Source: a virus (taxonomy: Duplodnaviria > Caudoviricetes). From it: a DNA stretch of 57,810 nt. The DNA lies in the IMG/VR virus record IMGVR_UViG_3300007735_000761, positions 1-57,810 of that record; one strand, 5' to 3'. Of this stretch, positions 1-19,773 are shown one piece after another. The notes beneath the pieces were generated by a model, which had not been told where the DNA came from, did no database searches, and saw nothing but the letters and a program-made list of their open reading frames with translations. Position numbers and translations under genes: made by a program. The number at the start of each line of letters is the position of its first letter. The stretch's first letter is position 1.

Positions 1-152
1 CAGTCGTGGCTCAACTACTGCAAGCCCGGCGAGTGGCACCACAAACACGCGCACCCGAACTCGTTTATCTCGGGCGTCCTTTACATGAAGGCTGCACGGG
101 AGCGCGACAAGATTTACTTCTACCGCGACGGCTATCAGCAGATCAAACTGCC
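1..152. repeat. Terminal overlap, left copy (circular assembly)
   Basis: Matches 57659-57810 apart from 4 synonymous substitutions; lies mid-gene. Confidence 0.95.
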
Positions 153-351
153 GACGGACAACTGGAACCTGCACAACTCAGAGTCGTGGTGGTTCGAGGT
201 CGGTGCGGGCGACCTGATGATTTTCCCCTCGCACCTCACGCACATGGTGGAATCCGTGCAGCAGGAGCGGGTCTCGCTGTCGTTTAACACTTTCCCAGTC
301 GGATACGTTGGTGAGGAAGAAAGTCTCACCGCTTTGCATTTGGAGAATTGA
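1..351 (+). CDS. 2OG-Fe(II) oxygenase (TIGR02466-like), C-terminal part; continues from 57410 across the circular junction
   Basis: SWLN..HxHxHPNSFISGVLY..GDLMIFPSHLTHMV..RVSLSFN motifs; frame is continuous across the overlap. Confidence 0.85.
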   Translation, partial: QSWLNYCKPGEWHHKHAHPNSFISGVLYMKAARERDKIYFYRDGYQQIKLPTDNWNLHNSESWWFEVGAGDLMIFPSHLTHMVESVQQERVSLSFNTFPVGYVGEEESLTALHLEN

Positions 352-352
352 T

Positions 353-718
353 ATGGCGCACTTTGCAGAGATTGATGCTAACGGTGTGGTGCAGCGCGTG
401 ATCGTTGTCGCCAACAAAGACACGGCTGACGTTGACGGCAACGAGAGCGAGGCCATCGGCGTAGCGTTCTGCCAGAGGCTGCTCGGCGGCAACTGGAAGC
501 AGACGAGCTACAACGCTAACTTCCGCAAGCACTACGCCGGGATCGGCTACACCTACGATGCAGGCCGCGATGCGTTCATCCCGCCGCAGCCGTATCCGTC
601 GTGGTCGCTGGATGCCGATTGCAACTGGCAGGCTCCGGTCGCCATGCCGAGCGACGGCAAGATGTATTCGTGGGACGAAGCCACGCAGGCTTGGGTCGCT
701 AGGGAGGCCATGACTTAA
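353..718 (+). CDS. Conserved phage tail-associated protein (possible fibre chaperone)
   Basis: GGAG SD; MAHFAEID..WKQTSYN..YAGIGYTYD..DAFIPPQPYPSW motif, typical downstream of Gly-rich fibre genes. Confidence 0.6.
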   Translation: MAHFAEIDANGVVQRVIVVANKDTADVDGNESEAIGVAFCQRLLGGNWKQTSYNANFRKHYAGIGYTYDAGRDAFIPPQPYPSWSLDADCNWQAPVAMPSDGKMYSWDEATQAWVAREAMT

Positions 719-720
719 TC

Positions 721-942
721 ATGGACTTTCAAGTTCTATTTAATATCGCCATTGGAATTGCTGGCGTTTGTGGCGGCTGGATTCTGAATAACATTTCTCG
801 TTCAATCGAAAAGCTGGACGAGGATGTTCGCAACATGCCGCTGACTTACGTAACGCAAAATCACTTTCAGCGCGATATTGACGAGATCAAATCCATGCTG
901 CGATTGATCTTTGACCGACTTGAGAACAAGCAAGACAAATGA
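721..942 (+). CDS. Small membrane protein of the lysis region
   Basis: N-terminal TM helix followed by a coiled coil. Confidence 0.6.
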   Translation: MDFQVLFNIAIGIAGVCGGWILNNISRSIEKLDEDVRNMPLTYVTQNHFQRDIDEIKSMLRLIFDRLENKQDK

Positions 943-1352
943 GCGAACCAATAGATATTGAACTGTTTAAGGCGCAGGCTCAGGCTGAATTAAATCGGCT
1001 TGAGGCTGAGTCGTCCGCTAAAGACGTTGCCGGTAAAGCCATTGGCAAGGATGGCCTGAAGTACATTACCGCCATCGTTCTTATCGGTGTAGTTGCAAGC
1101 CTCTTTCTTGACGGCGAAAAAATTGCTGCCGTGATGGGCTTGCTCGGTGCTTCGCTAACCGCCTTGATCTCGATGCTAAACGGCATTGCCGGAACGGTGG
1201 AAAAGGAAGACAAGCCCGAGTTCAAAGTCATTGAAGACTTGATCGCTAAACTTGATCGGCTTGATCGCAAAGAGATGCCGATGCGCGTAGATGTTGAGGG
1301 CGATCATGTAACCGTCACCAAGGGCGACGATGTGGTGAGGGCTTCCAAATGA
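939..1352 (+). CDS. Two-TM membrane protein (holin/antiholin candidate)
   Basis: Two hydrophobic helices; ATGA-coupled; upstream of the endolysin. Confidence 0.55.
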   Translation: MSEPIDIELFKAQAQAELNRLEAESSAKDVAGKAIGKDGLKYITAIVLIGVVASLFLDGEKIAAVMGLLGASLTALISMLNGIAGTVEKEDKPEFKVIEDLIAKLDRLDRKEMPMRVDVEGDHVTVTKGDDVVRASK

Positions 1353-1837
1353 TGACAATGGTTAGCACTTTCTTGTCGTTTCTCGCAGGCGGTCTGCCGA
1401 AAATCTTGACGTTGTTCCAAGACCGGCAGGACAAGAAGCATGAGATTGCGATCCTTCAAATGCAGAAGGAACGTGAGCTGGAAATGCTGGCCAAGGGCTA
1501 TCAGGCTCAAGCGCAGGTTGAAGAGATCAAGACCGAGCAGATCCAGATTCAGGCACAGGCCGAAGAGCGCGTAGCCCTCTATCAGCACGACATGAAGATT
1601 GGTGAAGGCGCGAGCCAGTGGGTCATTAACCTTCGGGCATCGGTGCGTCCGGTTGTGACTTACATTTTTGTGCTGGAGCTGGTGGCGCTTAATGTCGCGG
1701 GGCTTTGGTATGCATGGAACCAAGGCACGCCTTTTGCGCTAGCCATGGAAAATGTCTTTAGCGACGATGAAATGCTAATTCTGAGCAGCATCGTGGCATT
1801 TTGGTTTGGGACGCAGGCGTTTGGCCGTAAGTCGTGA
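1349..1837 (+). CDS. Holin-like protein (3TM/GTA-holin type)
   Basis: LRASVRPVVTY and FWFG motifs; TM helices; overlaps the endolysin start. Confidence 0.65.
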   Translation: MMTMVSTFLSFLAGGLPKILTLFQDRQDKKHEIAILQMQKERELEMLAKGYQAQAQVEEIKTEQIQIQAQAEERVALYQHDMKIGEGASQWVINLRASVRPVVTYIFVLELVALNVAGLWYAWNQGTPFALAMENVFSDDEMLILSSIVAFWFGTQAFGRKS

Positions 1838-2313
1838 AGACCAGTTCTGAGGCCATTAAGCTCATCAAGTGCCACGAGGGTGTCAGGCTCAAGCCTTACC
1901 GTTGTCCGGCGCTTTTGTGGACGGTCGGCGTGGGCCATGTCATAGACCCAGCACATGCAAAGGTGCCCTTTGAAGAAAGGCGCAATTTACCGATACCCGA
2001 TGGCTGGAACCGTGTCCTCGGCATGGACGAGGTGGACGCTATTCTGGCTAAAGACCTTGGCCGGTTTGAGCGCGGCGTGGCCCGATATTGCCCTCCTGCT
2101 CTTAATAGCCAAGGCCGCTTCGATGCTCTGGTTTCCTTCAGTTTCAACGTCGGCCTCGGCAATTTGCAACGCTCTGGGCTGCGGATGAAAACCAACCGGG
2201 GCGAGTTTGAAGAGGCGGCTGAGGAGTTTATGAAATGGACCAAAGCCGGTGGGCGGGTGCTGCCGGGGTTGGTCAAACGGCGTCTGGACGAGCAGAGACT
2301 ATACTTGTCGTAA
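1834..2313 (+). CDS. Endolysin, GH24 phage lysozyme
   Basis: HEG..PYRCPA..WTVGVGH (E-x8-C-x5-T triad), FDALVSFSFNVG, LPGLVKRR. Confidence 0.95.
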   Translation: MKTSSEAIKLIKCHEGVRLKPYRCPALLWTVGVGHVIDPAHAKVPFEERRNLPIPDGWNRVLGMDEVDAILAKDLGRFERGVARYCPPALNSQGRFDALVSFSFNVGLGNLQRSGLRMKTNRGEFEEAAEEFMKWTKAGGRVLPGLVKRRLDEQRLYLS

Positions 2314-2315
2314 GT

Positions 2316-2324
2316 TGTTATAAT
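2316..2324 (+). promoter_or_regulatory. Extended -10 promoter TGtTATAAT
   Basis: Perfect TGnTATAAT in the intergenic gap before 2379. Confidence 0.65.
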
Positions 2325-2378
2325 CGCGCCCAAATAGTCTTGCCCCGACTGGTAAGACGCGGGACTTAGGAGATTGAT

Positions 2379-3026
2379 ATGCCTGCGTCAATGACATTTA
2401 CCAGTTTGCAGTCGGACATCCGCAACTACCTTGAGCGCGGCGGAGCGACCGACCCTATTGTCTATGAGCAGATTCCCCGGCTGATTACGCTGGCGGAGCG
2501 CCGGATTGCGCGTGAACTGAAGATTCAGGGTTTCCAGCGGGTGGTCAATACGACCATGCAGTCTGGGGTGGCGGTGTATCCGAAACCCGACCGGTGGCGC
2601 GACACAATTAGCGTCAACATCGGCACCGGGGCTAACAACAACACCCACACGCCGGTCTTTGCTAGGTCTTATGAATATATCCGCCAGTACTGGCCGGACG
2701 AGACCCAGACTGATCAGCCGCTTTTTTACGCTGACTACAATTACAACTTCTGGATCTTCGGACCGACTCCGGATGCCGATTATCCGATGGAAGTGCTCTA
2801 TTACGAACTGCCGCCGCTTTTGGACGAAGTGACGCAGACTAACTGGCTGTCTGAGTACGCGCCCAATCTGCTCCTGTACGGGTCGCTGGTTGAGGCTACG
2901 CCGTTTGTGAAGGATGACCAGCGGGTGCAATTGTGGCAGTCCTACTATGACCGCTCGTTGGCCGCGCTTAATGGCGAGGATCTCCAGAAGATCGTTGACC
3001 GGTCTACGAATCGCCGGGAGGCTTAA
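2379..3026 (+). CDS. Head-tail adaptor / tail tubular A-like protein
   Basis: AGGAG SD; TNWLSEYAPNLLLYGSLVEA motif; position upstream of the nozzle. Confidence 0.7.
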   Translation: MPASMTFTSLQSDIRNYLERGGATDPIVYEQIPRLITLAERRIARELKIQGFQRVVNTTMQSGVAVYPKPDRWRDTISVNIGTGANNNTHTPVFARSYEYIRQYWPDETQTDQPLFYADYNYNFWIFGPTPDADYPMEVLYYELPPLLDEVTQTNWLSEYAPNLLLYGSLVEATPFVKDDQRVQLWQSYYDRSLAALNGEDLQKIVDRSTNRREA

Positions 3027-3029
3027 ACC

Positions 3030-4223
3030 GTGACTACTTATACGAATACTTTCGGCGGGACGAACATCTACCCTAGCGATGTGTCTTATCGCTATGTCTC
3101 GCTGACAATTGATCAGGCGCTAAGCTGGCCGCTTGAGACGGCTCCGACGAATGATGTGGTCGCGTCCATCATGGACGTTAACGCCACGACGACGAGCCTT
3201 GTCATCACGATGCCGGATGCGACTGAAGCGTCTACTGGTCAGACGGTGCTCTTTAACAATGTTGGCTCCAACACGTTTACGGTTAAGACCAGCACTGGCA
3301 CTCAGATCTGTGCGCCGACTTCGGGCAGCACTTTTCAGATTTACCTGACCAGTAACAGCACGGCTTCGGGCACTTGGCGCTCGTTTCAATACGGCGCGTC
3401 TGCTTCTGCGAACAATGCAGCCAGTCTGGCGGGTCTTGGCCTTAAAGCGATTGCAACGACGCTCAACCAGTCGATTGAAGTATCTTCTTTTAGCAGTAAC
3501 TACACGGCGGGTGTCAGCGACCGATCCAAGGCATTTATCTGGACGGGTGGTGCAGGAACGCTTGCTCTGACCGCAGCGCCGACGCTTGGCAACGACTGGT
3601 TTGTGCAGATTCGCAATGGCGGTACGGGCGATCTGACGATTGATCCCAACAGTTCCGAGAACATCAACGGCGCGGCTACCCTTACGCTTTCGCCCGGAGA
3701 CTCCTGCATCATCGTAACGGATGGCGTGCAGTTCTGGACGATTGGCTTTGGTCAGTCTGCGGTGTACGCCTTCAGCGTGCTTCAGATTGATATTTCGGGC
3801 AGCGGTAATTACACGCTTACCATATCTGAGCTTAATAAAACGGCTTATATTTTTATTGGCACCCTGACCGGAAACCGCGACATCATTGTTCCAACTACTG
3901 TTCAACAGTATTGGGTCAGCAATCAAACGACGGGTTCTTATACTCTTGGCATCAAGACGGCTGCGCAATCTCCGGCGACAACCGTAGCCCAAGGCGCACG
4001 CGCCATCCTGTACTGTGATGGCACTAACGTAGTGGACGCGGATACGGCAACGATTGCCATTCCGGTGACCGTAGCTCAGGGCGGTACGGGAGCAACTACG
4101 GCTTCGGGCGCTAGAGCTAATCTTGGCGCTACGGCAGTAGGCGATGCGGTCTTTACTGCGGCCAGCACTACGGCTGCGCAGATTGCACTTGGCCTTGATC
4201 CGATTCAGGGCGGCACGTACTAA
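3030..4223 (+). CDS. Tail structural/fibre protein
   Basis: T/S/G-rich beta protein; PVxQGGTGATTASGARANLG; C-terminal GGTY. Confidence 0.7.
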   Translation: MTTYTNTFGGTNIYPSDVSYRYVSLTIDQALSWPLETAPTNDVVASIMDVNATTTSLVITMPDATEASTGQTVLFNNVGSNTFTVKTSTGTQICAPTSGSTFQIYLTSNSTASGTWRSFQYGASASANNAASLAGLGLKAIATTLNQSIEVSSFSSNYTAGVSDRSKAFIWTGGAGTLALTAAPTLGNDWFVQIRNGGTGDLTIDPNSSENINGAATLTLSPGDSCIIVTDGVQFWTIGFGQSAVYAFSVLQIDISGSGNYTLTISELNKTAYIFIGTLTGNRDIIVPTTVQQYWVSNQTTGSYTLGIKTAAQSPATTVAQGARAILYCDGTNVVDADTATIAIPVTVAQGGTGATTASGARANLGATAVGDAVFTAASTTAAQIALGLDPIQGGTY

Positions 4224-5833
4224 TGCCTTTACAGCCGATCATCATTCGTCCGCAACCCGGTATCAAGCGGGACGGCACGAAGTTTGAGGGCAACTTCTAC
4301 GTTGACGGACAATGGGTCCGTTTTCAGCGTGGGCTCCCTCGAAAGATAGGCGGCTTTCGTGCGCTTCAAGATCGGCTGGACGGCATTGCGCGTGGCATGC
4401 ACGTTCACAATCATAATGGATATACCTATGTCCATATCGGCACGCAGGACGGTGTATTTCGTTTCCGCTTGAATCAAAACGGTTTGAGCAGCATTGTCAC
4501 GAATCGTACTAATCCTGCCTACGTCAGCAACAGCAATGCCAACTGGATGTTTGATGTGGCGTATAACACCACAACGAGCCAGAATGAAATCTTGGCGCAT
4601 GTCGCTTCTGACATTGAAGACATCTCCTCTGATGCCAACGGCGCTCTGTATCGCGGGTACGACAACGGCACGACTACGCTGGATCTGGTGTCAGCGGTCA
4701 CGGTCTCTGGCGGTATCGTTGCCTTAGCGCCGTATGTCTTTGCGTATGGCTCGGATGGCTTTGTGCAGTGGAGTCGCGCGGGATATACGGATGACTGGTC
4801 TGGCGGCGATGCCGGATCTGCTCGGGTTACGAGCCAGAAGATCGTCAAGGGACTACCGCTTCGTGCGGGTGCTGGCAATGCACCGTCTGGTCTTTTCTGG
4901 TCGCTGGATTCCGTAGTTCGCGCTACGTATGTGGGCGGCGCTGCCGTCTTTAACTTCGACACCATTACCTCGCAGTCAAGCATTCTCTCTGGGAAGAGTG
5001 TGATTGAGTACGACGGTTTGTACTTCTGGTGCGGCGTTGACCGCTTCTTGATGTTTAACGGTGTTGTACGCGAAGTACCCAATCAGCTTAATCTGAACTG
5101 GTTCTACGACAATCTGAACTACGCGCAGCGGCAGAAAGTCTTTGCGTTTAAAGTGCCGCGCTGGGGCGAGATTTGGTGGTGCTACCCGCGTGGCAGTGCG
5201 ACCGAATGCACTCATGCGGTGATCTACAACGTGCGCGAAGAAACGTGGTACGACACGGAGCTTCCAAATGGTGGACGCTCTGCGGGTATGTATGCGCAGG
5301 TCTTTAACTCGCCGCTTGTAATTGGCGTCATTGATACAGAACTGACTCAGTATCGCGGCGTACAAAACACCGAGCTGCGCATTACGGAAGATGGCAATCC
5401 TCGCATCATCAACGACCCCAAGGGCTACGTGGTGTGGCAGCACGAGTACGGCACCAACGAGATCAACGGCGATCAGGTTCGACCGGTGCAGTCGTACTTT
5501 GAGACGGCAGACATGTCGCTGATTGCTTCCGAGAACCCGCAGAACATGGCGATCCGAGTGGAATATCTGGAGCCGGACTTTGTGCAGGCAGGCGATATGA
5601 CCGTTCAAGTTACCGGTCGCGCTAATGCCAAGTCAGCCGAAGTCACTAGCGATCCGCAGACTATTTACGCCACGCCCACCGAGAAGCAGCAGCAGTTGGT
5701 GTACTTCCGCGAGATTCGTCGCGAGTTGCGCTTCCGGTTTGAAAGCAACACCCTGAATGGTAATTACCAGATGGGTCAGGTCATTGCGCACATTGAACCG
5801 GCGACCGGTACGATCTTGGGAGAAAACCCATGA
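4223..5833 (+). CDS. Tail nozzle / packaged-DNA stabilization protein (P22 gp10 / T7 gp12-like)
   Basis: WVRF..G.P.KIGG N-terminus; EIWWCYP..VIYN..E.TW motif; size and synteny. Confidence 0.75.
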   Translation: MPLQPIIIRPQPGIKRDGTKFEGNFYVDGQWVRFQRGLPRKIGGFRALQDRLDGIARGMHVHNHNGYTYVHIGTQDGVFRFRLNQNGLSSIVTNRTNPAYVSNSNANWMFDVAYNTTTSQNEILAHVASDIEDISSDANGALYRGYDNGTTTLDLVSAVTVSGGIVALAPYVFAYGSDGFVQWSRAGYTDDWSGGDAGSARVTSQKIVKGLPLRAGAGNAPSGLFWSLDSVVRATYVGGAAVFNFDTITSQSSILSGKSVIEYDGLYFWCGVDRFLMFNGVVREVPNQLNLNWFYDNLNYAQRQKVFAFKVPRWGEIWWCYPRGSATECTHAVIYNVREETWYDTELPNGGRSAGMYAQVFNSPLVIGVIDTELTQYRGVQNTELRITEDGNPRIINDPKGYVVWQHEYGTNEINGDQVRPVQSYFETADMSLIASENPQNMAIRVEYLEPDFVQAGDMTVQVTGRANAKSAEVTSDPQTIYATPTEKQQQLVYFREIRRELRFRFESNTLNGNYQMGQVIAHIEPATGTILGENP

Positions 5834-6066
5834 CGCACCGTATCGTAGATCCGCGTGGCATAGACTTGCAGTACTGGGCAGATACGCTTTGCTTGGACTT
5901 GGATGACTATGCTGTCATCCCGCAGCTCTATGACCCGGATCGCTGGCAAGACTGGGCTGCGGGACTTGTCGGTATCAACGGTATTTCGCAACTCAATCCG
6001 CCGTCGCCTTACCAGTTCAATGACTGGCGCGAGTGGGCACTTCGTTTTTATCAGATGTTGAATTAG
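5830..6066 (+). CDS. Small virion-associated protein
   Basis: Coupled ORF; Trp-rich (WQDWA..P.PY.F.DW.EWA). Confidence 0.6.
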   Translation: MTHRIVDPRGIDLQYWADTLCLDLDDYAVIPQLYDPDRWQDWAAGLVGINGISQLNPPSPYQFNDWREWALRFYQMLN

Positions 6067-6073
6067 GTGAACC

Positions 6074-8710
6074 ATGCCTAGCTACTACACTTATGGTGAG
6101 ATGCCGGACCCGGAAGAAGCCGTTTATGGCGTCGGTGGGCTGGATTCGTATTACAACGAAATGCCTATTCCGGCAGGTGCTGGGTTTGCTTCTCCGTTTG
6201 CAGACGAAGGGCGTGAAGGCGTTATGCCAGTGGGTGCTGACACCCCAATTAACGAAGAGCCTATTTATAGCGGCGGAATATCTGATCGAGAAACCATCAT
6301 GCCGACCGGCGAGGAGGAGCGCCTAACGCAGTCCTCTCCTGCGGCAACGACGGAAATGCCTGCAGCTTCTTATTTTGTTCCGGGGCTAACGACTTCAGTA
6401 ACTCCCACTGGCAGCACGCTTGAAGCTGGTCAGAAGGCAATGGCGTTGGCTTCGCTTGTTGACCCGTCTGCTCTTAAAGCCATGAACTTCCAAGTGGGAG
6501 ATGCGGCTTTTGGGGGTGGTGCTGGCGGATCTCCAATGACGCTTCAGTACTATCGAAACATAGCACCGGATACCGTTGGCGGTCAGGGTTCTTTCTACGA
6601 AGAGGGAGCCTTGGAGGCTGCTAAGGCAAACGCCGCTGATCCCACTCAAGGATTGTTTAAGTCTGGCTTTGAAGCTTTGGCAGGACAGCCCGGAATTCAA
6701 GAGGCTATTCAAGCAAAGAGTCAGCGCGATTTTGATGCAATTGCCAAGGTTGAATCTGACTATGACGTAATGAAGCCGCTGAGTGATTTGCTCAAGGCAA
6801 ACAAATTTAAAGAAGCTTTTGATTACGCCAAAGACAAGGGTGTTGAAGATAAGTTGATGCAAAGTAACTGGCTTGCTCAGTTGCGTCAGCCGTTTACTCC
6901 GGAAGAAATGAAAGACTTCTTTAAGTCTATGCCTCCGGGGTTTGCTGGAAGCAAGTTTGATTTTGCTCCAGAGATGGGAACGACTAGCGGGGCTGATTAC
7001 GGTTATCCAGATCCGCAGTCGGCGTATCAGCGGAAAGAAGACACGACGATCAAAGACGTTGTTAGATTTGGTCTTGATGTCATGCTTGCTGCTGCGGGCG
7101 TTCCGCCTATTCAGTCAGGGCTTACCAAGGCTGCATATACGCTTGCCGAAACCGGCGGCAATGTTGAAGCCGCTCTTAAAGCAGGCGTAGCCGCTGCGGC
7201 TGGGGCAAAGGTCGGTGAGTTTCTGCGTGCACCGGGACTTTCTGAAGTTACCCCAACGGGAGCTGTAGCAGGAACTACTGGCGCAGCAGCTCGGGCAGCA
7301 ACGGAGGCTGCAAAGCAAGGCGTAGCCAGCGGGCTTTCTGGCGGCGCTTTGCAAGAGATTGTGGTTCAGGCCGCAAGAGCAGCGGCTCCGGGTCTTGCTG
7401 AAACGGCGGTTAGAACGCTTGCCTCTAGTGCTTTGACCGAGGCCGTTAAGCCATCTGTGGCTGAAACTCCCAAGGTTGCGGAACCCGTCAAGACAGATCA
7501 GGTTGCTCGTGTAACTGAACCTTCTGGTCTTGAAGAAGTTGTTGTTTCAGGAAAGCGTTATTTTCAGCCAAGCCTTAAATCTGCTTTAGCCAGCGCCGCA
7601 ACGAGTGCAGGCACTCAGGACATTTTGTCTGAAAGACAAATTAAAGAAGCGCAAGAGGCTGAGCAAAGAGCTGCGGAAGAAGCGCAGAAGCCTGAAGATT
7701 TGGAAGAAGTCAAAGTGACGGCTAAAAGGCCAGCGTTGCTTGACCCTCTTGATCTGTTAAGAACTGGAACCGTTCCTGATTTTAGTAAAGAGTTGATGCA
7801 AAAAGGTTTGTACGATAAACCTATTTTTGAAGATGTTCCTATTAAAGATATTCCAAAAGAAAAATTAGAGGAAATTGTTGTAAAAGGGACAGCTCCCGTA
7901 AAGGGCGGTCTTACTGTTGGTGATGTTGCCGCAGGACTTGGTAGCGCTGCCGCTGCAAATGCTTTGTTAACTCAAGGCTATACGCAGCCTAATGTTGACC
8001 CGTTAACTGGCGAGCCTAAGCAAGTTCCAAAAACTCAACAAGAACTAGATTCCATTCAAAAGGCTCTTGCAACCGGCGCTGCTATTCCGGGCACTGGAGG
8101 CGCGTTAGATACAATTAAGAGTTTGCTTGAAAAATACGGCACACTTGAAAACGCATTAAAAATACTTGGCGCTATTGGTGCTGCGGGTGCAAAAACTCCA
8201 ACCGTTTCAACTGGTACGGGAGTTGGCGTTGGGGGTATGGGCGGCGCGTTGCCCAAGTACACCTATACCCGGCAGCAGTTGCGCCCGGACATTGACTACT
8301 ACACCTACGGCACCCGACCGGAAGCCAAGTTCTTTGAGCAGGGCTTGCAGTTGGAAAAGCCGGTTCAACCACCTCCGCCAGCGGACGTTAATCCGCCGGA
8401 TGAGAACAAGCCTATGGCTTATGGCGGCTTGACCGGCTACTCCCATGGCGGCAGTCACAGTTCGCGATACGTAGACGGCCCCGGCTCCGGTCGAGATGAC
8501 AAGATCCCGGCACTGCTCAGCGATGGGGAGTACGTGATTGACGCTGAGACCTTGGCGCTGTTGGGAGACGGCTCGACCAAGGAGGGGGCGAAGAGACTTG
8601 ACGAGTTCCGTGCTAATATCCGCAGGCACAAGGGTCAGGCCCTCTCGCGTGGCCAAATTAGTCCGAACGCTAAGTCGCCCGAAAAGTACATGGGCGGAGG
8701 GTTGACCTAA
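6074..8710 (+). CDS. Internal virion/ejection protein with TonB-box-like repeats
   Basis: 878 aa, Ala-rich; C-terminal AxGG plus GPGSGRDDKIPALLSDGEYVI motif; four L(E/Q)E(I/V)xV(T/S/Q/K)(A/G) motifs; first gene of the ejection cluster. Confidence 0.7.
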   Translation: MPSYYTYGEMPDPEEAVYGVGGLDSYYNEMPIPAGAGFASPFADEGREGVMPVGADTPINEEPIYSGGISDRETIMPTGEEERLTQSSPAATTEMPAASYFVPGLTTSVTPTGSTLEAGQKAMALASLVDPSALKAMNFQVGDAAFGGGAGGSPMTLQYYRNIAPDTVGGQGSFYEEGALEAAKANAADPTQGLFKSGFEALAGQPGIQEAIQAKSQRDFDAIAKVESDYDVMKPLSDLLKANKFKEAFDYAKDKGVEDKLMQSNWLAQLRQPFTPEEMKDFFKSMPPGFAGSKFDFAPEMGTTSGADYGYPDPQSAYQRKEDTTIKDVVRFGLDVMLAAAGVPPIQSGLTKAAYTLAETGGNVEAALKAGVAAAAGAKVGEFLRAPGLSEVTPTGAVAGTTGAAARAATEAAKQGVASGLSGGALQEIVVQAARAAAPGLAETAVRTLASSALTEAVKPSVAETPKVAEPVKTDQVARVTEPSGLEEVVVSGKRYFQPSLKSALASAATSAGTQDILSERQIKEAQEAEQRAAEEAQKPEDLEEVKVTAKRPALLDPLDLLRTGTVPDFSKELMQKGLYDKPIFEDVPIKDIPKEKLEEIVVKGTAPVKGGLTVGDVAAGLGSAAAANALLTQGYTQPNVDPLTGEPKQVPKTQQELDSIQKALATGAAIPGTGGALDTIKSLLEKYGTLENALKILGAIGAAGAKTPTVSTGTGVGVGGMGGALPKYTYTRQQLRPDIDYYTYGTRPEAKFFEQGLQLEKPVQPPPPADVNPPDENKPMAYGGLTGYSHGGSHSSRYVDGPGSGRDDKIPALLSDGEYVIDAETLALLGDGSTKEGAKRLDEFRANIRRHKGQALSRGQISPNAKSPEKYMGGGLT

Positions 8711-9780
8711 TGAGCGCAGTTGACTTTCTGTTTGAGGGCAGCGCCCCAACACCCGGAACCACGGCCAGCACTTCTCAGGTGCAGTTGCCCGAGTGGTATA
8801 CCCAGTACACGACCGACATGCTGGGCCGTGCTCAGGCAGCGGCTAACCTTCCGTATGCGCAGTACACCGGGCCGCGTATCGCCGGGTTCACCCCGACCGA
8901 GCAGGCTGGCTTTGAGGCCACCAAGCAGGCTGCAACCGCTTATCAGCCGTTTTTAGGGCAGGCGGGAACGACCCTTGGACAAGCAGGCGGGGTGAGTGCA
9001 CTCGGGGTTGCGCAGCCTTTCTTATCTGCTGCCAGCCAGACATTCCCCGGAGCCGTTGGGGCATACATGAGCCCCTACACCCAAAACGTGGTCAATCAGA
9101 TCGCGCAGCAGGGGGTCCGGCAGTTGCAGGAAAAGTATCTCCCGGCGGTGGGCGAAGAGTTTATCAAGGCTGGCCAGTTTGGCCCCGGCCCCGGTTCGAC
9201 CCGCATGGGCGAGTTTGGTGCGCGGGCGCTGCGTGACGTTCAAGAGGCGGTGCTCGCAGAACAGGCCAAGGCTCTTGAGTCGGGCTACAAAACGGCTGCG
9301 GATATCTACGGCACCGATGTGGGCCGGATGGCAACGCTTGCAGGCACGGCGGGTCAGTTGGGGCTTGGCGAAGCCAAAACGCTTCAGGATCTTGCGTCTC
9401 GTTATGGCGAGATGGCGGGCGAAGCTCAGCGTTTGGGCTTGACCGGTGCCGGTGCGATTGGCGGCGTAGGCGAGAAAGAACGCGCTATGCAGCAGGCCAA
9501 TCTTGAGCTGGCGTACAAGGACTTCTTGCGTCAGGAAGCGTATCCGAAAGAGCAGATCAAGTTCTTGAGCGATGTACTTCAAGGGGTTCGTCTGCCGGAA
9601 ACAAAGATTGAACAGACCACAACTACGCCCGCGCAGCCGGGAGGTCCTTCGGCAATTGAGAAGGCTATTACTGGCGCGACTGGGGTTGCCAACATTATTG
9701 ATCTTATTAAGAAGTACCTCCCTAGTGGGTCAAGCGGGGCTGGCAGCGTCGGTACGTCATCAACGACAGACGTTCTTTAA
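8710..9780 (+). CDS. Internal virion/ejection (pilot-like) protein
   Basis: Q/A/G-rich helical protein; PYAQYTGPRIAGF and YMSPYTQNVV motifs typical of this class. Confidence 0.65.
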   Translation: MSAVDFLFEGSAPTPGTTASTSQVQLPEWYTQYTTDMLGRAQAAANLPYAQYTGPRIAGFTPTEQAGFEATKQAATAYQPFLGQAGTTLGQAGGVSALGVAQPFLSAASQTFPGAVGAYMSPYTQNVVNQIAQQGVRQLQEKYLPAVGEEFIKAGQFGPGPGSTRMGEFGARALRDVQEAVLAEQAKALESGYKTAADIYGTDVGRMATLAGTAGQLGLGEAKTLQDLASRYGEMAGEAQRLGLTGAGAIGGVGEKERAMQQANLELAYKDFLRQEAYPKEQIKFLSDVLQGVRLPETKIEQTTTTPAQPGGPSAIEKAITGATGVANIIDLIKKYLPSGSSGAGSVGTSSTTDVL

Positions 9781-9812
9781 CAAGCTCAGAAAAGTTTTCG
9801 GAGATTTGAACC

Positions 9813-11162
9813 ATGGATGACGAAAATCAAGAGCTTGGTCTTTTTGGTCTGAGTTCATTAGGCGCTGAAGACGAAGAAGGCGAAGAGACCGCCAGCATTA
9901 CGGCTGCGGCTGAGGGAGCGTTGCCCTATGCCGACAAACTTCGCTCGGAGTACGAAAAAACCATTGGCGAGTACCGTACCTCGACTGAAGATGTTTTGAG
10001 TCAGATTACAGCAGCGCGTAAGCGTCTTGAAATGCAGCCCACTAGCAAGACTCGTGGCGAATACGTGCGTGGCCTTGCTGAAAAGTTAACTGCTCCTAAA
10101 GAATCTACTGACCCGCGCTTTTACGAGCGGCGCAATCTTTATACTTTCCTGCGCGATGTGGGTCAGTACGGTGCCGAGCAGTCAGAAGCCGAAAAGCAAG
10201 CCAAACTTAAACGTCAAGAAGACTTGGCTAAGTTGGATGAGTTAAAGGCCAAGTACCGTCAGTCAAGTGCGCTGGGCTTGCTCAAGGAGTTGGAGCCTGC
10301 TTATCGGGCTGCGATGAAACCGGCTACCACTCGCGACTCAAGGACAACGGATCAAAAGAATGCCGATTCCATGAATATGAGTCTTCGTGACTATTACGAA
10401 TGGAAGAATAAACAGCAGAAAGAGGGTAAAGACCCAAATACCGCTCTTGATCAATTCATTCGCGCAAGAGGTATTCTTGCGGACCCGAAATCTTCCCCGG
10501 CTGATAGAGCCGCCGCTTTGGATTACATCCAAAAGAACACGCCTGCTGACATTCGTAAAGGCAAAATGGCTGAGGATAAAAATTCCAAGGGCTATCTTGA
10601 GAGAATTACCAATCAAGTTACCTTTACGATTCCTGACATTGATAGCGCCATCAAACAGGTTGATGAAGGTGGCATATTCGCGGCTGGTAATTTGTCGAAG
10701 TGGCTGGAAGGCAAACCATTTATTGGTCAGAAAGCGACAAACCTTGAGCGCACGTTGGAATCTATCCGCTCCAAGCTGGGCTTTGACAAACTTGAAGAGT
10801 TGAAGAAACTTTCTCCGTATGGAGCAAGCGGACTGGGCGCTGTGTCCAACGCGGAGCAAAGATTGTTGCAGTCTGTTAAAGGCTCTGTCGAAAGAGATCA
10901 AAGCCCTGAAAACCTGCGCGCTAATCTTGTTCGTATTAAGGACTTTTACGAAAACGAAGTCTTTAACATCTTGTCGCGTGAGACTGGCATTCAGGGAATT
11001 ACCGGCATAGAAGAAGCGATGAAGGAACTGGATGCAATTAGGGAGGGTACTGCTCCTTCTGCTGCTCCAGCCGGTGCCTCTGCTATGCCCACAATTGACC
11101 CTGATGCTATTCGTAAAGAGCGAGAGCGGCGCAATGCACTGCGCAAAGCAGGAGGCGGCTAA
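9813..11162 (+). CDS. Internal virion/ejection protein
   Basis: Helical; C-terminal GASGLGAVSNAEQRLLQS motif typical of P22 gp20-like DNA-transfer proteins. Confidence 0.65.
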   Translation: MDDENQELGLFGLSSLGAEDEEGEETASITAAAEGALPYADKLRSEYEKTIGEYRTSTEDVLSQITAARKRLEMQPTSKTRGEYVRGLAEKLTAPKESTDPRFYERRNLYTFLRDVGQYGAEQSEAEKQAKLKRQEDLAKLDELKAKYRQSSALGLLKELEPAYRAAMKPATTRDSRTTDQKNADSMNMSLRDYYEWKNKQQKEGKDPNTALDQFIRARGILADPKSSPADRAAALDYIQKNTPADIRKGKMAEDKNSKGYLERITNQVTFTIPDIDSAIKQVDEGGIFAAGNLSKWLEGKPFIGQKATNLERTLESIRSKLGFDKLEELKKLSPYGASGLGAVSNAEQRLLQSVKGSVERDQSPENLRANLVRIKDFYENEVFNILSRETGIQGITGIEEAMKELDAIREGTAPSAAPAGASAMPTIDPDAIRKERERRNALRKAGGG

Positions 11163-14100
11163 TGGCTATTGATCTGAGCAAGCTGTCAGACGAAGACCTT
11201 GATGCTCTTGAAAAAGGAGACCTGACGAGCCTTTCAGACGAAGCTTTAGACATGCTTGAAGGTAGAGAGCGCCCCGCTGCTGCTCCTACTCCCGCTCCTG
11301 CTGCGCCCTCTGCTCCAGTAGAGCCATTCCGTAAAGGACCGCAGGGGCCGCGTCGTTATCCCGGTCAGAATAAAGATCAGCGTAGGCTTCCCTTGCTTCC
11401 AAGGGATGTGCGCATTCCGACTGACGTTAGCCCTGCCCGTGGAGTAAGCGGTCTCTTGGGTATTCCCGGTGGCGCTGTTCGCATGGTTCGCAGTGTTGCC
11501 GAATTGGGCGGCGAAACTGAAACTTCTCGTGCGCTTAAAGAACTTGAGGCTTCTATTGCCGCTCGCGCCCCTGAAAAAGAAGTTTATGAATTTGGTCGGG
11601 TTGTTCCAGAGATTCTTCCCTTTGGCGTTACGGCAGGAGTTATTTCTAAACTACCTGTTGCAAGTCGACTTGGTATGAGTGCGCTTCAGACAGCCGGACA
11701 AGCAGGCACAGCGTATGCCATTACCCCAGAGAATCGCGAAGAAGCTGCGTTAATTACTGGTCTTCTTGGCGCTGCGGGTGAAGCCGCTCAACCGGTTTAT
11801 CAGTTGGGCAAGCGCGGAGTCACCAAGATTCGTCAGTTGCTTAGCACGACAGGCCCTGTAGGCGCTACGCCTGCTGAAGAGGCTGCAATTCGTATTGCCC
11901 GTGAAAAAGCTCCGGGCATGGAGGCTACTGAAGCAGAACTTGCTGCTGCGCGCGAATCTGAACGTCTTAAAAGAGAAGAAGCTGAACGGCTTAAAGCCAA
12001 GTATCTTCAGAACGAAGCAAATCGCGCTGCTCGGAAGGGCGAATTAGTCAAAGCCAAAACGACTGCTGAAGAAGCCAAAGCGCGTGTCGAGGCTGAAACC
12101 AGCGCAGCGGTTAAGGATGCCAAGGCAAAGCAAGACGCTATTGCCGATCAAATCCGCGACCGTGGCAAACAACTTACGGAAGAAGCAAAGGCTACGGATA
12201 AGGTGCTTGAAGAGACCAACATCCGAGAGGCTGCGGAAGATGCCAAGGGAACCCTTGAAGATCGCGCTTCAGGATTCAAAACGCTTTCTCAGAATTTAAA
12301 GCAAGAAGCCGACGCCGCGAAAGCCACTGCCGTTGAGCCCTTGCCGGTGCGGGATAAAAAATCTCGTGCGGTTGATTTCCGTCAGTTGATTTTGTCCAAA
12401 CGTGAGAACCTTAAAGAAGCTCGTGATAAGTCAATTGGTCGAGTAGTAGACCCCAAGACTGGTAAGACCGAGCCGTTGCCGTTCTTAAAGGCTGCTTTGG
12501 ATAAAGAGGATGCCGGTCAAACGATTAGTGCTGCCCCTGCATTTCGCAATCTTGTCAATTTTGTGCGTGACAGGGCTGAAAACATTAGCCGTTATGGTGA
12601 TGATGTTCTTTTGCCTCACGCAAAGTTTTTAAAAGAACTTGAGCCTATAAGGGAAACGATTGATGCAAGCGGCCAGAAAGTAAAAGAAGTTGTTCCCATA
12701 AAATTTGAAAAGTTGTGGGAATTGCGTCGTCGTATTGAGAAAGCTCGTACCGGAGAAACCGCTACGGGGTATGAAGTTCTTGAGAAAGAAAAGCGTGAAG
12801 ATTTGCTTAAAGAAATTGATAACGCTTTGGATGAGTTTGGCGTTGGCTACAAAGACTTCAATAAGAAGTATTCTGAAGCTTCGCGCCCGCTGGATGATTT
12901 TGAGTTTGGAATTGGCGAAAAGGCGACAGAGACTCGTAAGTTTAGTCGCAATACGTTTATTGAAACTCCTGAAGTTGTTTTGGATACGGCGCTTTCAAAG
13001 CCCAGTCGTTCTTCTGCGGAGCGGCTAAAGCCCTTGTTTGAAGACGCTGATCAAGACAAACTTGAAAACATCATCTTTGAGTCGTTAGTTGAAAAGGCAG
13101 GCAATACTGCCAAGGGCTACGATGATGTACTCAAGAAGTACGGAGAGTTTCTTGAGGTTTTCCCAAATGCCAAGAATGCTTTCCGGGCAGAAGCAGATCG
13201 CGTAAAGACCGCGTTTGGAGAAGCGGAGAAGACTGCTGCATTTAAAGAACGCTGGGCAAAGCGCATGGAAGATCGCGCCGATAAGGCAGAAAAAGCGGTC
13301 AAGTCCATTAGCGGAATGCAGGAGCGCGTCAAGACTTCAATGACCTCGCCTTTGAAGGAAGGGGCATTGGACGACATTGGTGCGTTTGTTAGAGCCAACC
13401 CAAGCATGCGCCCCAAGGTGGGAGCCGCTCTGCAAGACGTTTTAAATTCCATGGATGATCGGGTGCTCATCAGGGCGCTTGAGGTTCCTGAGCGTCAGGC
13501 CGCGTTTATGCGCGCTGGAATGGATCGCTCACAAATAGATGATGTTCTGGCCGGAGCGCGTCGTCGCTCAGATGAGCGTGTTGCCAAACTTGCTGAAGTG
13601 AAGGAAATGGGCCGCAGCTTCAGAGAGGCCAAGAAGGAAACTGAGGCCGCTAAGAGCGCAGCCGCCGAAAGCAAGAGGGCCGCTACCGAAGAGGTTAAAA
13701 AGGCTGGGGCTGAAATTGGAAAATTAAGCGCAGAAGGTCGCGCTGAAGAAATTGCCAAGAAACAGGCTCAGGCAGAGTTTCAGGCTGCTCGTGGTCTGCG
13801 CGTTAGCGCACAGCAAAAGCGTCAGGCTTTGAGTGAACTTACTCCCGACATGCGCGATGCCATCAATATCGAAGCCGAAAAGATTCCGCTTAACACAACC
13901 GAAGGGCTAGCTCGTGCTACGACTTTGGCAACTGTTTTAGGTGGAGTTGGCAGCGTTGTTGCAGGTTCTGTCTTGGGCGGAATGCTTACCGCTGGAGTTG
14001 CTGCGGCAGGAGCTACTGGACGAAGAATTTTAATTAAAAAGCAGCAAAAACAAATTGCTGATGAAATTAAAAATGTTGTTTCTGAAATCCTGAAAGACGA

Positions 14101-14965
14101 AACAGGTGGCGTAGTTTCTGCTATTGAGGGGAAAATCAATCGCGCCAATGACGTTGCCGCAGCCCAGCGGATTGCTAATAAAGCCCTCTCTCGTTTGGGC
14201 TACAAGCCGGGTGTCGGCGCGGTAACTTCAAGCGTAATTTACAACGCTTACGCTCAAGAGCCTTCGCCAGAGGTAGAAAAGACCGAACCTGTCGCGGAAG
14301 AAGCTCCGGCAAGCGAACCGGTTGCCGAAGAAGCGCCTGCAAAAGAACCCGTTGCAGAAGAGCCTGCTCCTGTAGCAGAAGCAAAGTCTTATACCTTTGA
14401 AAGTTTGACTCCTGATCAAGTCAAAAGAATGGGCGAGTATTTTGACAGTTTGGGCATGAACAAGGATTTCTTGCTCAACGCTCGTACCTTTAATGCTACT
14501 CCGTTTGAAAAGCGCAAAAGGCTTTTTGACTTGATGGAAACTCGTAATATGGCCGATGGTGGCAGCGTAGATGCTGAGCGTCAGCGTATTGAAGCTGAAA
14601 TAAGGAAAACCCCTTGGTTCAGCGAATTTGTTCGCCAATACGGCGAAGAACCAGATTTGTCTGAAAGGGCCAATTACGATTACATGACTGCTTGGAAGGC
14701 CGGTGTACGGCCACGAATCAACCCGAATGATAAGCGGTATCATTGGGACTCAAAAACGCCTGACGGCAGAATGCTTAAAAAGCCAGATCATCCGACGATT
14801 TGGAAGACGTATTTTATGGATGCAACTGGCATCGACCCGGACACCATTGGCATTAAGAATGAGCAGGAAGCTCAGGCTTACATCAATGCCCAGCGCGTCA
14901 AAAAAGCGCGTGGTGGGTACACCCCAGCAGAAGAGGTCTTGCTAAGACGCTACTCAAGCAGGTAG
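11162..14965 (+). CDS. Large internal virion/ejection protein
   Basis: 1267 aa with coiled coils; N-terminal DLSxLSDE repeats; hydrophobic Gly-rich segments; AxGG motifs. Confidence 0.7.
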   Translation: MAIDLSKLSDEDLDALEKGDLTSLSDEALDMLEGRERPAAAPTPAPAAPSAPVEPFRKGPQGPRRYPGQNKDQRRLPLLPRDVRIPTDVSPARGVSGLLGIPGGAVRMVRSVAELGGETETSRALKELEASIAARAPEKEVYEFGRVVPEILPFGVTAGVISKLPVASRLGMSALQTAGQAGTAYAITPENREEAALITGLLGAAGEAAQPVYQLGKRGVTKIRQLLSTTGPVGATPAEEAAIRIAREKAPGMEATEAELAAARESERLKREEAERLKAKYLQNEANRAARKGELVKAKTTAEEAKARVEAETSAAVKDAKAKQDAIADQIRDRGKQLTEEAKATDKVLEETNIREAAEDAKGTLEDRASGFKTLSQNLKQEADAAKATAVEPLPVRDKKSRAVDFRQLILSKRENLKEARDKSIGRVVDPKTGKTEPLPFLKAALDKEDAGQTISAAPAFRNLVNFVRDRAENISRYGDDVLLPHAKFLKELEPIRETIDASGQKVKEVVPIKFEKLWELRRRIEKARTGETATGYEVLEKEKREDLLKEIDNALDEFGVGYKDFNKKYSEASRPLDDFEFGIGEKATETRKFSRNTFIETPEVVLDTALSKPSRSSAERLKPLFEDADQDKLENIIFESLVEKAGNTAKGYDDVLKKYGEFLEVFPNAKNAFRAEADRVKTAFGEAEKTAAFKERWAKRMEDRADKAEKAVKSISGMQERVKTSMTSPLKEGALDDIGAFVRANPSMRPKVGAALQDVLNSMDDRVLIRALEVPERQAAFMRAGMDRSQIDDVLAGARRRSDERVAKLAEVKEMGRSFREAKKETEAAKSAAAESKRAATEEVKKAGAEIGKLSAEGRAEEIAKKQAQAEFQAARGLRVSAQQKRQALSELTPDMRDAINIEAEKIPLNTTEGLARATTLATVLGGVGSVVAGSVLGGMLTAGVAAAGATGRRILIKKQQKQIADEIKNVVSEILKDETGGVVSAIEGKINRANDVAAAQRIANKALSRLGYKPGVGAVTSSVIYNAYAQEPSPEVEKTEPVAEEAPASEPVAEEAPAKEPVAEEPAPVAEAKSYTFESLTPDQVKRMGEYFDSLGMNKDFLLNARTFNATPFEKRKRLFDLMETRNMADGGSVDAERQRIEAEIRKTPWFSEFVRQYGEEPDLSERANYDYMTAWKAGVRPRINPNDKRYHWDSKTPDGRMLKKPDHPTIWKTYFMDATGIDPDTIGIKNEQEAQAYINAQRVKKARGGYTPAEEVLLRRYSSR
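14285..14381 (+). repeat. 30-nt in-frame tandem repeat (EPVAEE(A)PA x3 plus a partial copy)
   Basis: gaacc(t/g/c)gt(c/t)gcNgaaga units encoding a flexible linker. Confidence 0.8.
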
Positions 14966-14975
14966 AGTCAACCCT

Positions 14976-19201: not shown

Positions 19202-19286
19202 GCCCCCTCCCAAAGAGGGCGCGACACGCGGGGGAGCAAATAGTAGGTGGGGGGATACTGCTCTCCCGAATGCCGCGCCCCGCTAG

Positions 19287-19769: not shown

Positions 19770-19773
19770 GGTC

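What the first reader, a model, noticed from the sequence alone, without database searches (positions are those of the whole stretch)
7238..7891. Ejection-type protein carries a regularly spaced array of TonB-box-like motifs: possible TonB-powered genome entry
Seen: the 878-aa protein contains LQEIVVQAAR (7349), LEEVVVSGKR (7529), LEEVKVTAKR (7700) and LEEIVVKGT (7865), spaced 60, 57 and 55 aa apart in otherwise low-complexity, disorder-like sequence. A weaker LSEVTPTG lies at 7238. Known: this pattern matches the N-terminal TonB box of TonB-dependent transporters (LEEVVVTAxR type, common in Xanthomonadales, Caulobacterales, Sphingomonadales and other aquatic taxa). Group B colicins use their own TonB box to be pulled into the cell by TonB-ExbBD. 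Phages T1 and phi80 need TonB but act through the receptor's box. Inference: once ejected into the periplasm, this protein may offer successive handles so that host TonB and pmf ratchet the protein, or the DNA conduit, across the envelope. Alternatively it could sequester TonB to block superinfection. I know of no characterised phage-encoded TonB-box array, but I cannot verify novelty.
Basis: partly seen in the sequence, partly recalled or inferred. Interest (0 to 1): 0.92.

Follow-up and report, generated by a model that had tools for sequence, protein, structure and literature searches.

The report
TonB-box look-alikes on phage ejection protein
A protein that this short-tailed phage probably injects ahead of its DNA carries four copies of the short docking tag that bacterial outer-membrane importers use to engage the TonB energy motor, so the phage may plug into that motor during entry, though binding has not been tested.

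Summary
The 878-aa protein (6074-8710, +) has four L-[EQ]-E-[IV]-x-V motifs at aa 426, 486, 543 and 598. Shuffles give 0.006 per protein, and there is none elsewhere in the window.

The window is a complete 57.8-kb podophage. Its portal is 58% identical to that of Caulobacter phage RW. The gene sits where SU10-type phages keep their ejection proteins.

- **Conservation:** 94 of 121 homologs keep the motif in 1-7 copies, while spacers and spacing (23-178 aa) diverge.
- **Bacterial meaning:** the 8-mer LEEVVVTG lies just upstream of a TonB-dependent-receptor Plug domain in 71 of 80 bacterial loci examined.
- **Independent scoring:** a matrix built only from 30 receptor TonB boxes of a Caulobacteraceae genome ranks the four sites as the top 4 of 30,722 window positions. 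They score below 27 of the 30 real boxes.
- **Structure:** three motifs lie in predicted coil and one in a predicted helix.
- **Rejected part:** the "weaker" fifth motif (7238) scores about 0 bits and is not supported.

TonB binding and the ratchet model remain untested inference. My four TonB-box searches of the paper library found no description. Earlier notes of this scan report similar look-alikes on tail proteins of other phages.

The parts
6074..8710 (+). Gene for the 878-aa TonB-box-bearing ejection-type protein (P0001)
   Evidence: ORF and translation. The N-terminus MxxYYTYG is conserved in homologs. No Pfam family. Only aa 797-830 match tape-measure PHROGs. The profile finds 6510 representative relatives at E<=0.001.
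7349..7378 (+). Motif 1, LQEIVVQAAR (aa 426-435)
   Evidence: 14.1 bits with the receptor-derived matrix. L426 and E428 are invariant columns in 16 homologs. It lies in predicted helix 423-437.
7529..7558 (+). Motif 2, LEEVVVSGKR (aa 486-495)
   Evidence: 17.4 bits, the best of 30,722 six-frame positions in the window. It lies in the coil segment 458-519 with pLDDT<50.
7700..7729 (+). Motif 3, LEEVKVTAKR (aa 543-552)
   Evidence: 15.8 bits. It lies in the coil segment 538-571 with pLDDT<50.
7865..7894 (+). Motif 4, LEEIVVKGTA (aa 598-607)
   Evidence: 15.9 bits. It lies in the coil segment 598-613 with pLDDT<50. It lacks the R/K at +9.
7238..7267 (+).
   Evidence: -0.0 bits with the receptor-derived matrix.
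6581..6973 (+). Confidently folded helical N-terminal domain (aa ~170-300)
   Evidence: AF2 blocks with pLDDT about 77-95. No PDB sequence or fold match.
7046..7228 (+). Ala/Gly-rich, mildly hydrophobic helices before the array (aa 325-350 and 366-385)
   Evidence: Kyte-Doolittle 19-residue means of 1.09-1.24. This is below the value of a classical membrane helix. A membrane role is inference.
7910..7975 (+). Ala/Gly-rich, mildly hydrophobic segment after the array (aa 613-634)
   Evidence: Kyte-Doolittle maximum 1.19. Predicted helix 625-634.
8231..8707 (+). Conserved C-terminal module (aa 720-878), shared with tape measure proteins and Caulobacter phage RW gp066c
   Evidence: Most nearly invariant columns lie here. 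aa 800-876 are 66% identical to RW, GB2A, RLK and KcrB. phrog_25241 and phrog_6090 'tape measure' match aa 797-830.
2379..3026 (+). Tail adaptor (context)
   Evidence: Pfam SU10_adaptor PF24175, E 2.9e-28.
4223..5833 (+). Nozzle-slot virion structural protein directly upstream (context)
   Evidence: phrog_3287 virion structural protein, E 7.5e-33. The nozzle role is inferred from gene order.
8710..14965 (+). Three further large genes of the presumed ejection block (356, 449 and 1267 aa)
   Evidence: ORFs. The 449-aa protein matches phrog_2534 'released from the phage upon host infection', E 3.5e-5. None has a TonB-box-like site above 7.3 bits.

Best explanation
The 878-aa protein is an internal virion (ejection) protein of a complete podophage related to the Caulobacter Riverwalk phages. 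Between a folded helical N-terminal part and a tape-measure-like C-terminal module it carries a flexible linker with four copies of a short linear motif. The family consensus is E-E-P-L-E-E-V-V-V-T-G-K-R-P. This motif matches the TonB box, and the residues just after it, of proteobacterial TonB-dependent outer-membrane receptors. Most likely, once the protein is expelled through the tail into the periplasm, these strands dock onto the C-terminal domain of host TonB by strand addition, as receptor and group B colicin TonB boxes do. That would tie the ejected protein to the proton-motive-force-driven ExbB-ExbD-TonB motor. The motor could pull successive stretches of the protein out of the particle, or anchor the trans-periplasmic channel to the inner membrane. 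Shown here: the motif, its conservation, its identity with receptor TonB boxes, its predicted disorder and its gene context. Inferred: ejection into the periplasm, TonB binding and any energy coupling.
For: (1) Four sites against 0.006 expected, and none elsewhere in the window. (2) Conservation with divergent spacers: 94 of 121 homologs have the strict motif in 1-7 copies. Positions that the regex did not fix are also conserved in 245 instances: T 65% at +6, G/A 76% at +7, R/K 97% at +9. In 150 representatives that are under 50% identical to each other, 73 have at least one site of 12 bits or more, against 2 after shuffling. Of the 118 that are 500 aa or longer, 45 have two or more sites. (4) An independent matrix was built from 30 receptor boxes of one Caulobacteraceae genome, which has 45 Plug hits and an exbB-exbD-tonB operon. 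It ranks the four sites 1-4 among 30,722 six-frame positions at 14.1-17.4 bits, while the 99th percentile of shuffle maxima is 10.7. 62 of 121 homologs have a site at 19.1 bits or more, inside the range of real boxes. (5) The flavour is proteobacterial. R/K at +9 occurs in 21 of 39 short-N-terminus receptor loci and in 2 of 41 SusC-like loci, and the nearest cultured phages infect Caulobacter. (6) Motifs 2-4 lie in predicted coil, and the flanks are Pro-rich in the family logo. (7) Ejection slot: the order is adaptor, fibre, nozzle-slot protein, then four large genes. In SU10, gp20-24, which by their numbers follow nozzle gp17 and needle gp18, are the ejection proteins (passages of PMC9509320). 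(8) The 8-mer recurs in unrelated phage virion proteins. There are 63 viral stretches, 25 of them in this family, against 12 for the reversed peptide. In ORFs of 150 aa or more the count is 56 against 4. (9) Cultured Caulobacter phage RW gp066c has one site at 20.3 bits, the top of 15,374 positions in its 16-kb locus.
Against: No binding, virion or infection data exist, and the host is unknown: no tRNA genes were found and no relative turned up in 185,579 species genomes. This phage's own four sites (14.1-17.4 bits) score below 27 of 30 real receptor boxes in leave-one-out scoring, which reach 19.1 or more. They depart from the receptor consensus at +6 (Q, S, K) and at +4 (K). My first, 15-residue matrix with flanks and weak pseudocounts did not separate them. 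The scores were 5.2, 2.6, 2.1 and -1.7, the 99th percentile of shuffle maxima was 7.7, and two other window positions scored higher. The 10-residue matrix was a second attempt. Motif 1 is predicted helical. 18% of family instances have E at +6; 29 of the 30 receptor boxes printed have T there and none has E. 25 of 121 homologs have no site of 12 bits or more. Related phages MW202545 and Pelagibacter phage HTVC023P have no such site in the regions read. The motif is a generic strand-forming peptide and could bind something else.
Confidence: 0.5

Rival explanations
1. The motif is a generic strand-forming repeat. The ejection protein uses it to assemble with itself or with other phage proteins, for example to build the trans-periplasmic tube, or to bind another envelope component. 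On this view its likeness to TonB boxes is convergence on a good edge strand.
For: Variable copy number and spacing, as in structural repeats. E at +6 in 18% of instances, and variants such as repeated EVKVEAP in P0116 that drift from the receptor consensus. Motif 1 is predicted helical. This phage's sites score below most real boxes.
Against: The likeness covers ten positions, including L at 0 and R/K at +9, which a bare edge strand would not need. In bacteria the 8-mer is almost confined to receptor N-termini, 71 of 80 loci. It recurs in unrelated phage proteins at disordered ends. No partner with a matching conserved strand was seen in the window.
Confidence: 0.3
2. The boxes bind TonB to occupy it rather than to be pulled. 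That would shut down receptor-dependent uptake or block superinfection by TonB-dependent phages and bacteriocins.
For: The same sequence evidence as for TonB binding. Several boxes per chain would raise avidity.
Against: A virion delivers few copies of an ejection protein, whereas a cell holds hundreds of TonB molecules (recalled, not tested here). Exclusion functions are usually expressed after infection, not carried in the particle. Nothing here bears directly on this.
Confidence: 0.07
3. L-x-E followed by hydrophobic residues marks cleavage sites for a head maturation protease, as in T4-type proheads. The internal protein would then be cut into pieces of about 55 aa.
For: L at 0 and E at +2 are fixed by the regex that defined the motif instances, and L426 and E428 are invariant columns in the 16-sequence alignment. 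The protein is presumably packed in the head. A 324-aa gene of unknown function lies in the capsid module (42588-43562). The T4 cleavage rule is recalled, not tested.
Against: Conservation runs seven residues downstream, to T, G/A and R/K. The same motif occurs on baseplate tail-tube-cap proteins, which are not head proteins. No protease family was identified.
Confidence: 0.05

Closest known systems
TonB box of TonB-dependent outer-membrane receptors (proteobacterial form, as in the 30 receptors of the Caulobacteraceae genome G001)
   Same: The same ten-residue pattern: L/V, acidic, acidic, I/V, I/V, V, T, G/A, x, R. LEEVVVTG precedes a Plug domain in 71 of 80 bacterial loci. Both lie in extended, unstructured sequence.
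   Different: The phage protein has no Plug or barrel. The boxes are internal and present in four copies rather than one near the N-terminus. Position +6 is looser (Q, S, K here; E in 18% of the family).
Group B colicins, pesticin and S-type pyocins: imported toxins with their own TonB box in a disordered translocation domain
   Same: A foreign protein that must cross the envelope carries a receptor-type TonB box in disordered sequence. The proposed use, being pulled by TonB-ExbBD, is the same. This comparison rests on recall. Pesticin's TonB box appears in PMC3390615, of which I saw the search listing only.
   Different: Those toxins have one N-terminal box plus receptor-binding and killing domains. 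Here there is an internal array in a virion protein with no such domains.
Podophage ejection proteins (SU10 gp20-24; T7 gp14-16; P22 gp7, gp20, gp16)
   Same: Large genes after the tail and nozzle genes, low-confidence folds, and a presumed release into the periplasm (PMC9509320 passages).
   Different: No sequence or fold relation to any solved ejection protein was found. No TonB box has been reported on them in my searches.
C-terminal module of tape measure proteins
   Same: aa 797-830 match phrog_25241 and phrog_6090, both 'tail length tape measure protein'. The Gly-Gly tags were noted by the scan.
   Different: Only a match of about 30 residues. This is a short-tailed phage, and the rest of the protein is unrelated.
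TonB-dependent phages T1 and phi80
   Same: Phage entry depends on TonB (recalled).
   Different: They rely on the receptor's own TonB box. Here the box is on a phage protein.

Membership tests
Functional TonB box (TonB-binding short linear motif) | Sequence fits the TonB-box consensus of receptors | tested here: met
   A matrix from 30 receptor boxes scores the four sites at 14.1-17.4 bits, the top 4 of 30,722 positions. They are weaker than 27 of 30 real boxes. A first 15-residue matrix did not separate them. PROSITE PS00430 was not available.
Functional TonB box (TonB-binding short linear motif) | Lies in extended, accessible sequence | tested here: inconclusive
   Motifs 2-4 lie in coil with pLDDT<50, but motif 1 lies in a predicted helix. 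Periplasmic exposure is inferred from gene position only.
Functional TonB box (TonB-binding short linear motif) | Binds the TonB C-terminal domain by strand addition | not testable with these tools
   Needs a binding assay or a structure.
Functional TonB box (TonB-binding short linear motif) | Function depends on TonB-ExbBD and proton motive force | not testable with these tools
   Needs infection of tonB/exbBD mutants. The host of this phage is unknown.
TonB-dependent receptor | Plug domain and 22-strand barrel | tested here: not met
   No Pfam family at E<=0.01.
Group B colicin-type translocation domain | Single N-terminal TonB box followed by receptor-binding and cytotoxic domains | tested here: not met
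   The boxes lie at aa 426-607 of 878. No colicin or pyocin family matched in Pfam.
Podophage ejection (internal virion) protein | Gene in the block after adaptor, fibre and nozzle genes | tested here: met
   SU10_adaptor at 2379-3026, fibre-like gene at 3030-4223, phrog_3287 at 4223-5833, then 6074-14965. SU10 order from PMC9509320.
Podophage ejection (internal virion) protein | Present in virions and lost on genome release | not testable with these tools
   Needs virion proteomics.
Tape measure protein | Full-length relation to a tape measure family in a long-tailed phage | tested here: not met
   Only aa 797-830 match. The tail module is podophage-like.

The most novel reading that the evidence does not exclude
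A large family of phage ejection proteins (6510 representative relatives at E<=0.001) carries arrays of host-type TonB boxes. These would let the host's own ExbB-ExbD-TonB motors reel the unfolded protein out of the capsid hand over hand. That would make the proton motive force, through TonB, the energy source for the first step of podophage entry. The same tag on unrelated tail-tip proteins would then mark a general, undescribed phage strategy.
Probability: 0.3. Interest if true: 0.9.

Novelty: new variant of a known kind. Interest (0 to 1): 0.75.

Why it matters
How short-tailed phages move their ejection proteins and the first DNA across the outer membrane and periplasm is still poorly understood, and so is what pays for it. 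A virion protein with its own TonB boxes would give a concrete, testable energy coupling. The phage would borrow the host's TonB motor directly, as group B colicins do, rather than through a receptor as T1 and phi80 do. It would also predict new resistance routes through tonB and exbBD, and a sequence tag for finding proteins that phages send into the periplasm. A cultured pair, Caulobacter vibrioides and phage RW, has one strong site and could be used for the test.

Tried and rejected
**Structure and family searches**
- One complex prediction gave no verdict, so it says nothing either way. It paired the TonB C-terminal domain of the Caulobacteraceae genome G001 with P0001 aa 476-511.
- P0001 has no Pfam family.
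- A profile search of PDB sequences found nothing at E<=1.
- Foldseek of the AF2 model against the PDB gave no match at E<=0.001.
- The ESM Atlas gave only viral hypothetical clusters.

**Host search**
- A scan of 185,579 species genomes with the family alignment found no relative.
- No tRNA genes were found.
- Megablast of window 1-20000 against phage records found nothing.

**Matrix forking**
- The first, 15-residue matrix did not separate the motifs.
- I then used a 10-residue core with substitution-based pseudocounts.

**Relatives without the motif**
- I read MW202545 bases 1-50000 and the whole of HTVC023P.
- Neither has a site above 10.9 bits.
- They lack a detectable P0001 homolog, so this says little.
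- I recall that Pelagibacter lacks TonB, but I did not test it.

**Readings rejected**
- Chance or low complexity, rejected by the shuffles.
- Recent tandem duplication, rejected because no DNA repeat is present.
- A fragment captured from a receptor gene, rejected because no Plug domain is present.

**Literature**
- Four TonB-box searches found no paper describing a TonB box on a phage virion protein: 'TonB box' with 'phage'/'ejection protein' (at least 2 of 3 terms), with 'phage protein', with 'virion', and with 'phage tail'.
- In one search none of the 20 rows listed (of 161 papers) contained 'TonB box'.
- One search was too loose to be useful, and one search failed because a term was too short.
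- The library holds open-access papers and bioRxiv only, and supplements were not seen.
- Of PMC11053796 and PMC9509320 I read passages found by term search. Of all other papers I saw only the search listing.
Full report
**What the window is**

The window is a complete 57,810-bp virus record with a podophage layout. It holds:
- a large terminase (37806-39287)
- a portal (39277-41802; phrog_1216)
- a Mu-gpT-like major head protein (44721-45635)
- an SU10-type adaptor (2379-3026; PF24175, E 2.9e-28)
- a fibre-like protein (3030-4223)
- a virion structural protein in the nozzle slot (4223-5833; phrog_3287)
- four large genes at 6074-14965

The portal is 58% identical to those of Caulobacter phages RW, KcrB, RLK and GB2A. 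PMC11053796 proposes the genus Riverwalkvirus for these phages (passages read). The portal is also 46% identical to that of an uncultured phage, MW202545. It is about 33-37% identical to those of Roseobacter and Pelagibacter phages. In SU10, proteins gp20-24 are present in virions and absent after genome release; by their numbers they follow nozzle gp17 and needle gp18 (PMC9509320, passages read). By gene order the target gene 6074-8710 is therefore an ejection-type protein. This is an inference.

**The observation**

The regex L[EQDS]E[IV].V hits four times. Shuffles of the protein give a mean of 0.006 hits, and 0 of 20,000 shuffles had two or more. No other six-frame ORF of 100 aa or more in the window has a hit. 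The DNA has no tandem repeat that could explain this.

**Anatomy of the protein**

AlphaFold2 on a 121-sequence alignment gives mean pLDDT 57.7. The parts are:
- a confident helical domain at about aa 170-300
- further Ala/Gly-rich helices up to aa 458
- long coil segments with pLDDT below 50 at 458-519, 538-571 and 598-613, which contain motifs 2, 3 and 4
- two short strands and a long helix in the C-terminal module

Motif 1 lies in a predicted helix (423-437). Mildly hydrophobic Ala/Gly segments flank the array at 325-350, 366-385 and 613-634, with Kyte-Doolittle maxima of 1.09-1.24. The last 160 residues are the most conserved part. This part is shared with RW gp066c (66% identity over aa 800-876). 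About 30 residues of it match tape-measure PHROGs.

**Conservation**

- Of 121 proteins (the query plus 120 homologs), 94 carry the strict motif in 1-7 copies.
- Of the 27 without it, 19 have looser variants and 8 have none by my regex. One of those 8, P0116, shows a repeated EVKVEAP variant.
- In 245 instances, drawn from these 121 proteins and nine further cluster members (130 in all), positions that the regex did not fix are conserved: T 65% and E 18% at +6, G/A 76% at +7, R/K 97% at +9, P 49% at +10.
- Spacings range from 23 to 178 aa, and the alignment shows unrelated, indel-rich spacers.
- A profile search of 1.84 billion representatives finds 6510 relatives at E<=0.001 and 721 at E<=1e-30.
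- Among the best 150 representatives, which are under 50% identical to each other, 73 have at least one site of 12 bits or more with the receptor matrix, against 2 after shuffling.
- Of the 118 representatives that are 500 aa or longer, 66 have at least one site and 45 have two or more.

**Is it a TonB box by sequence?**

I scanned one genome for each of 185,579 species for DNA able to encode LEEVVVTG. In most of them the motif lies 30-150 aa into an ORF of 600-1160 aa. 71 of 80 fragments contain a Plug domain (PF07715) just downstream, and 41 also have the CarbopepD_reg_2 domain typical of SusC-like receptors. The 9 without Plug include fragments cut by locus ends, a 91-aa ORF (L062) and two vWA-domain ORFs.

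One of the 80 loci lies in a Caulobacteraceae genome, G001. That genome has an exbB-exbD-tonB operon and 45 Plug matches. The 30 loci returned show boxes of the form L/V, acidic, acidic, I/V, I/V, V, T, G/A, x, R about 14 residues before the Plug match.

A 10-residue matrix built only from these 30 boxes gives the following:
- The four phage sites score 17.4, 15.9, 15.8 and 14.1 bits. They rank as the top four of 30,722 six-frame positions in the window; the fifth position scores 10.0.
- The next-best position in P0001 scores about 0 bits.
- The 99th percentile of shuffle maxima is 10.7.

Against the claim:
- 27 of 30 real boxes score 19.1 or more in leave-one-out scoring, so this phage's sites are weaker than typical receptor boxes.
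- My first matrix, 15 residues wide with weak pseudocounts, failed to separate them.

In the family as a whole, 62 of 121 proteins have a site at 19.1 bits or more. R/K at +9 is a feature of receptors with short N-termini (21 of 39). It is rare in SusC-like receptors (2 of 41). The phage motif therefore has the proteobacterial flavour, which fits the Caulobacter-phage kinship.

**Beyond this family**

- In 2.9 million viral contigs the same DNA pattern matches 63 stretches. 25 lie in P0001 homologs, whose ORFs hold 2-7 motif-like sites (L196, cut by the locus end, has 2), and 38 lie elsewhere.
- The reversed peptide matches 12 stretches. In ORFs of 150 aa or more the counts are 56 against 4.
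- The other carriers include T4 gp48-like baseplate tail-tube-cap proteins (phrog_230), a virion structural protein family (phrog_11190), a tape-measure-like ORF and one true receptor.
- Cultured Caulobacter phage RW has one site at 20.3 bits in gp066c, the best of 15,374 positions in its locus.
- Earlier notes of this scan describe TonB-box look-alikes on tape measure and T4-like tail-tip proteins in other genomes. These are unchecked AI notes. My tail-tube-cap hits agree with them independently.

**Mechanism**

Established knowledge of the Ton system (recalled) is as follows. The TonB C-terminal domain binds the TonB box by strand addition. ExbB-ExbD use the proton motive force to pull on it. 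Group B colicins and S-pyocins carry their own box in a disordered domain and are pulled in.

The phage linker has the same tag in disordered, Pro-flanked sequence, on a protein expected to emerge at the periplasmic face of the outer membrane. That is where TonB searches for boxes. I therefore think TonB docking is the most likely function (about 0.5), with pulling or anchoring as the consequence. A hand-over-hand ratchet is the bold version (about 0.3).

The rivals are a generic assembly strand (0.3), TonB occupation (0.07) and protease sites (0.05). None of the binding steps is shown.

**Novelty**

Four TonB-box searches of the open-access library found no report of a TonB box on a phage virion protein. 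Subscription journals and supplements were not covered. I rate this a new variant of a known kind: TonB-box mimicry by imported proteins. This scan had already seen the same thing on other DNA.

Noticed in passing
L190:866-2095:+, L164, L191:2-1255:+ (IMG/VR loci): T4 gp48-like baseplate tail-tube-cap proteins (phrog_230, E about 1e-44) have N-terminal extensions with one LEEVVVTG-type motif. L191 has two (LQEVTVTGTR and LEEVVVTGRR).
   Followed up: partly
L170:1335-4307:- (also L168, L173, L201): A virion structural protein family (phrog_11190) of about 850-990 aa carries a single LEEVVVTGKRVPEP-type site in a polar, disordered-looking N-terminal part.
   Followed up: partly
L163, L169:2865-3428:+, L178, L183, L202, L210: A recurrent ORF of about 190 aa on viral contigs has the motif followed by SR about 45 aa from its start. 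It has no Pfam or PHROG match and its function is unknown.
   Followed up: no
L198:4407-6761:-: A genuine TonB-dependent receptor (Plug plus barrel) lies on a 57-kb contig classed as viral. It could be host DNA, a prophage flank or a carried gene.
   Followed up: no
L024 and L067 (Bacteroidota genomes): In 2 of 80 bacterial loci the motif lies about 700 aa into ORFs that carry vWF_A/VWA domains, not at a receptor N-terminus.
   Followed up: no
L001:6498-8240 (Caulobacter phage RW gp066c): This cultured relative shares the C-terminal module. It has one strong site (VDEIVVTPSQ, 20.3 bits) and a degenerate second one (VDELVIKP) in a Pro/Thr-rich linker. That makes it a usable experimental system.
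   Followed up: partly
window 6083-6097 and 8297-8311 (aa 4-8 and 742-746 of P0001): The peptide YYTYG occurs at the very N-terminus and again in the C-terminal module (DIDYYTYGTRPEAKFF). Both are nearly invariant in homologs. Its meaning is unknown.
   Followed up: no
window 8414-8700: Gly-Gly tags (MAYGG, YSHGG, YMGGG) lie in the C-terminal module.
   Followed up: no
window 36991-37572 and 45693-46373: There are two endonuclease VII-type genes. One sits directly after the major head gene, inside the structural module.
   Followed up: no
window 42179-42577: A GroES-like co-chaperonin gene lies between the portal and capsid genes (phrog_3188). HTVC023P and MW202545 have it too.
   Followed up: no
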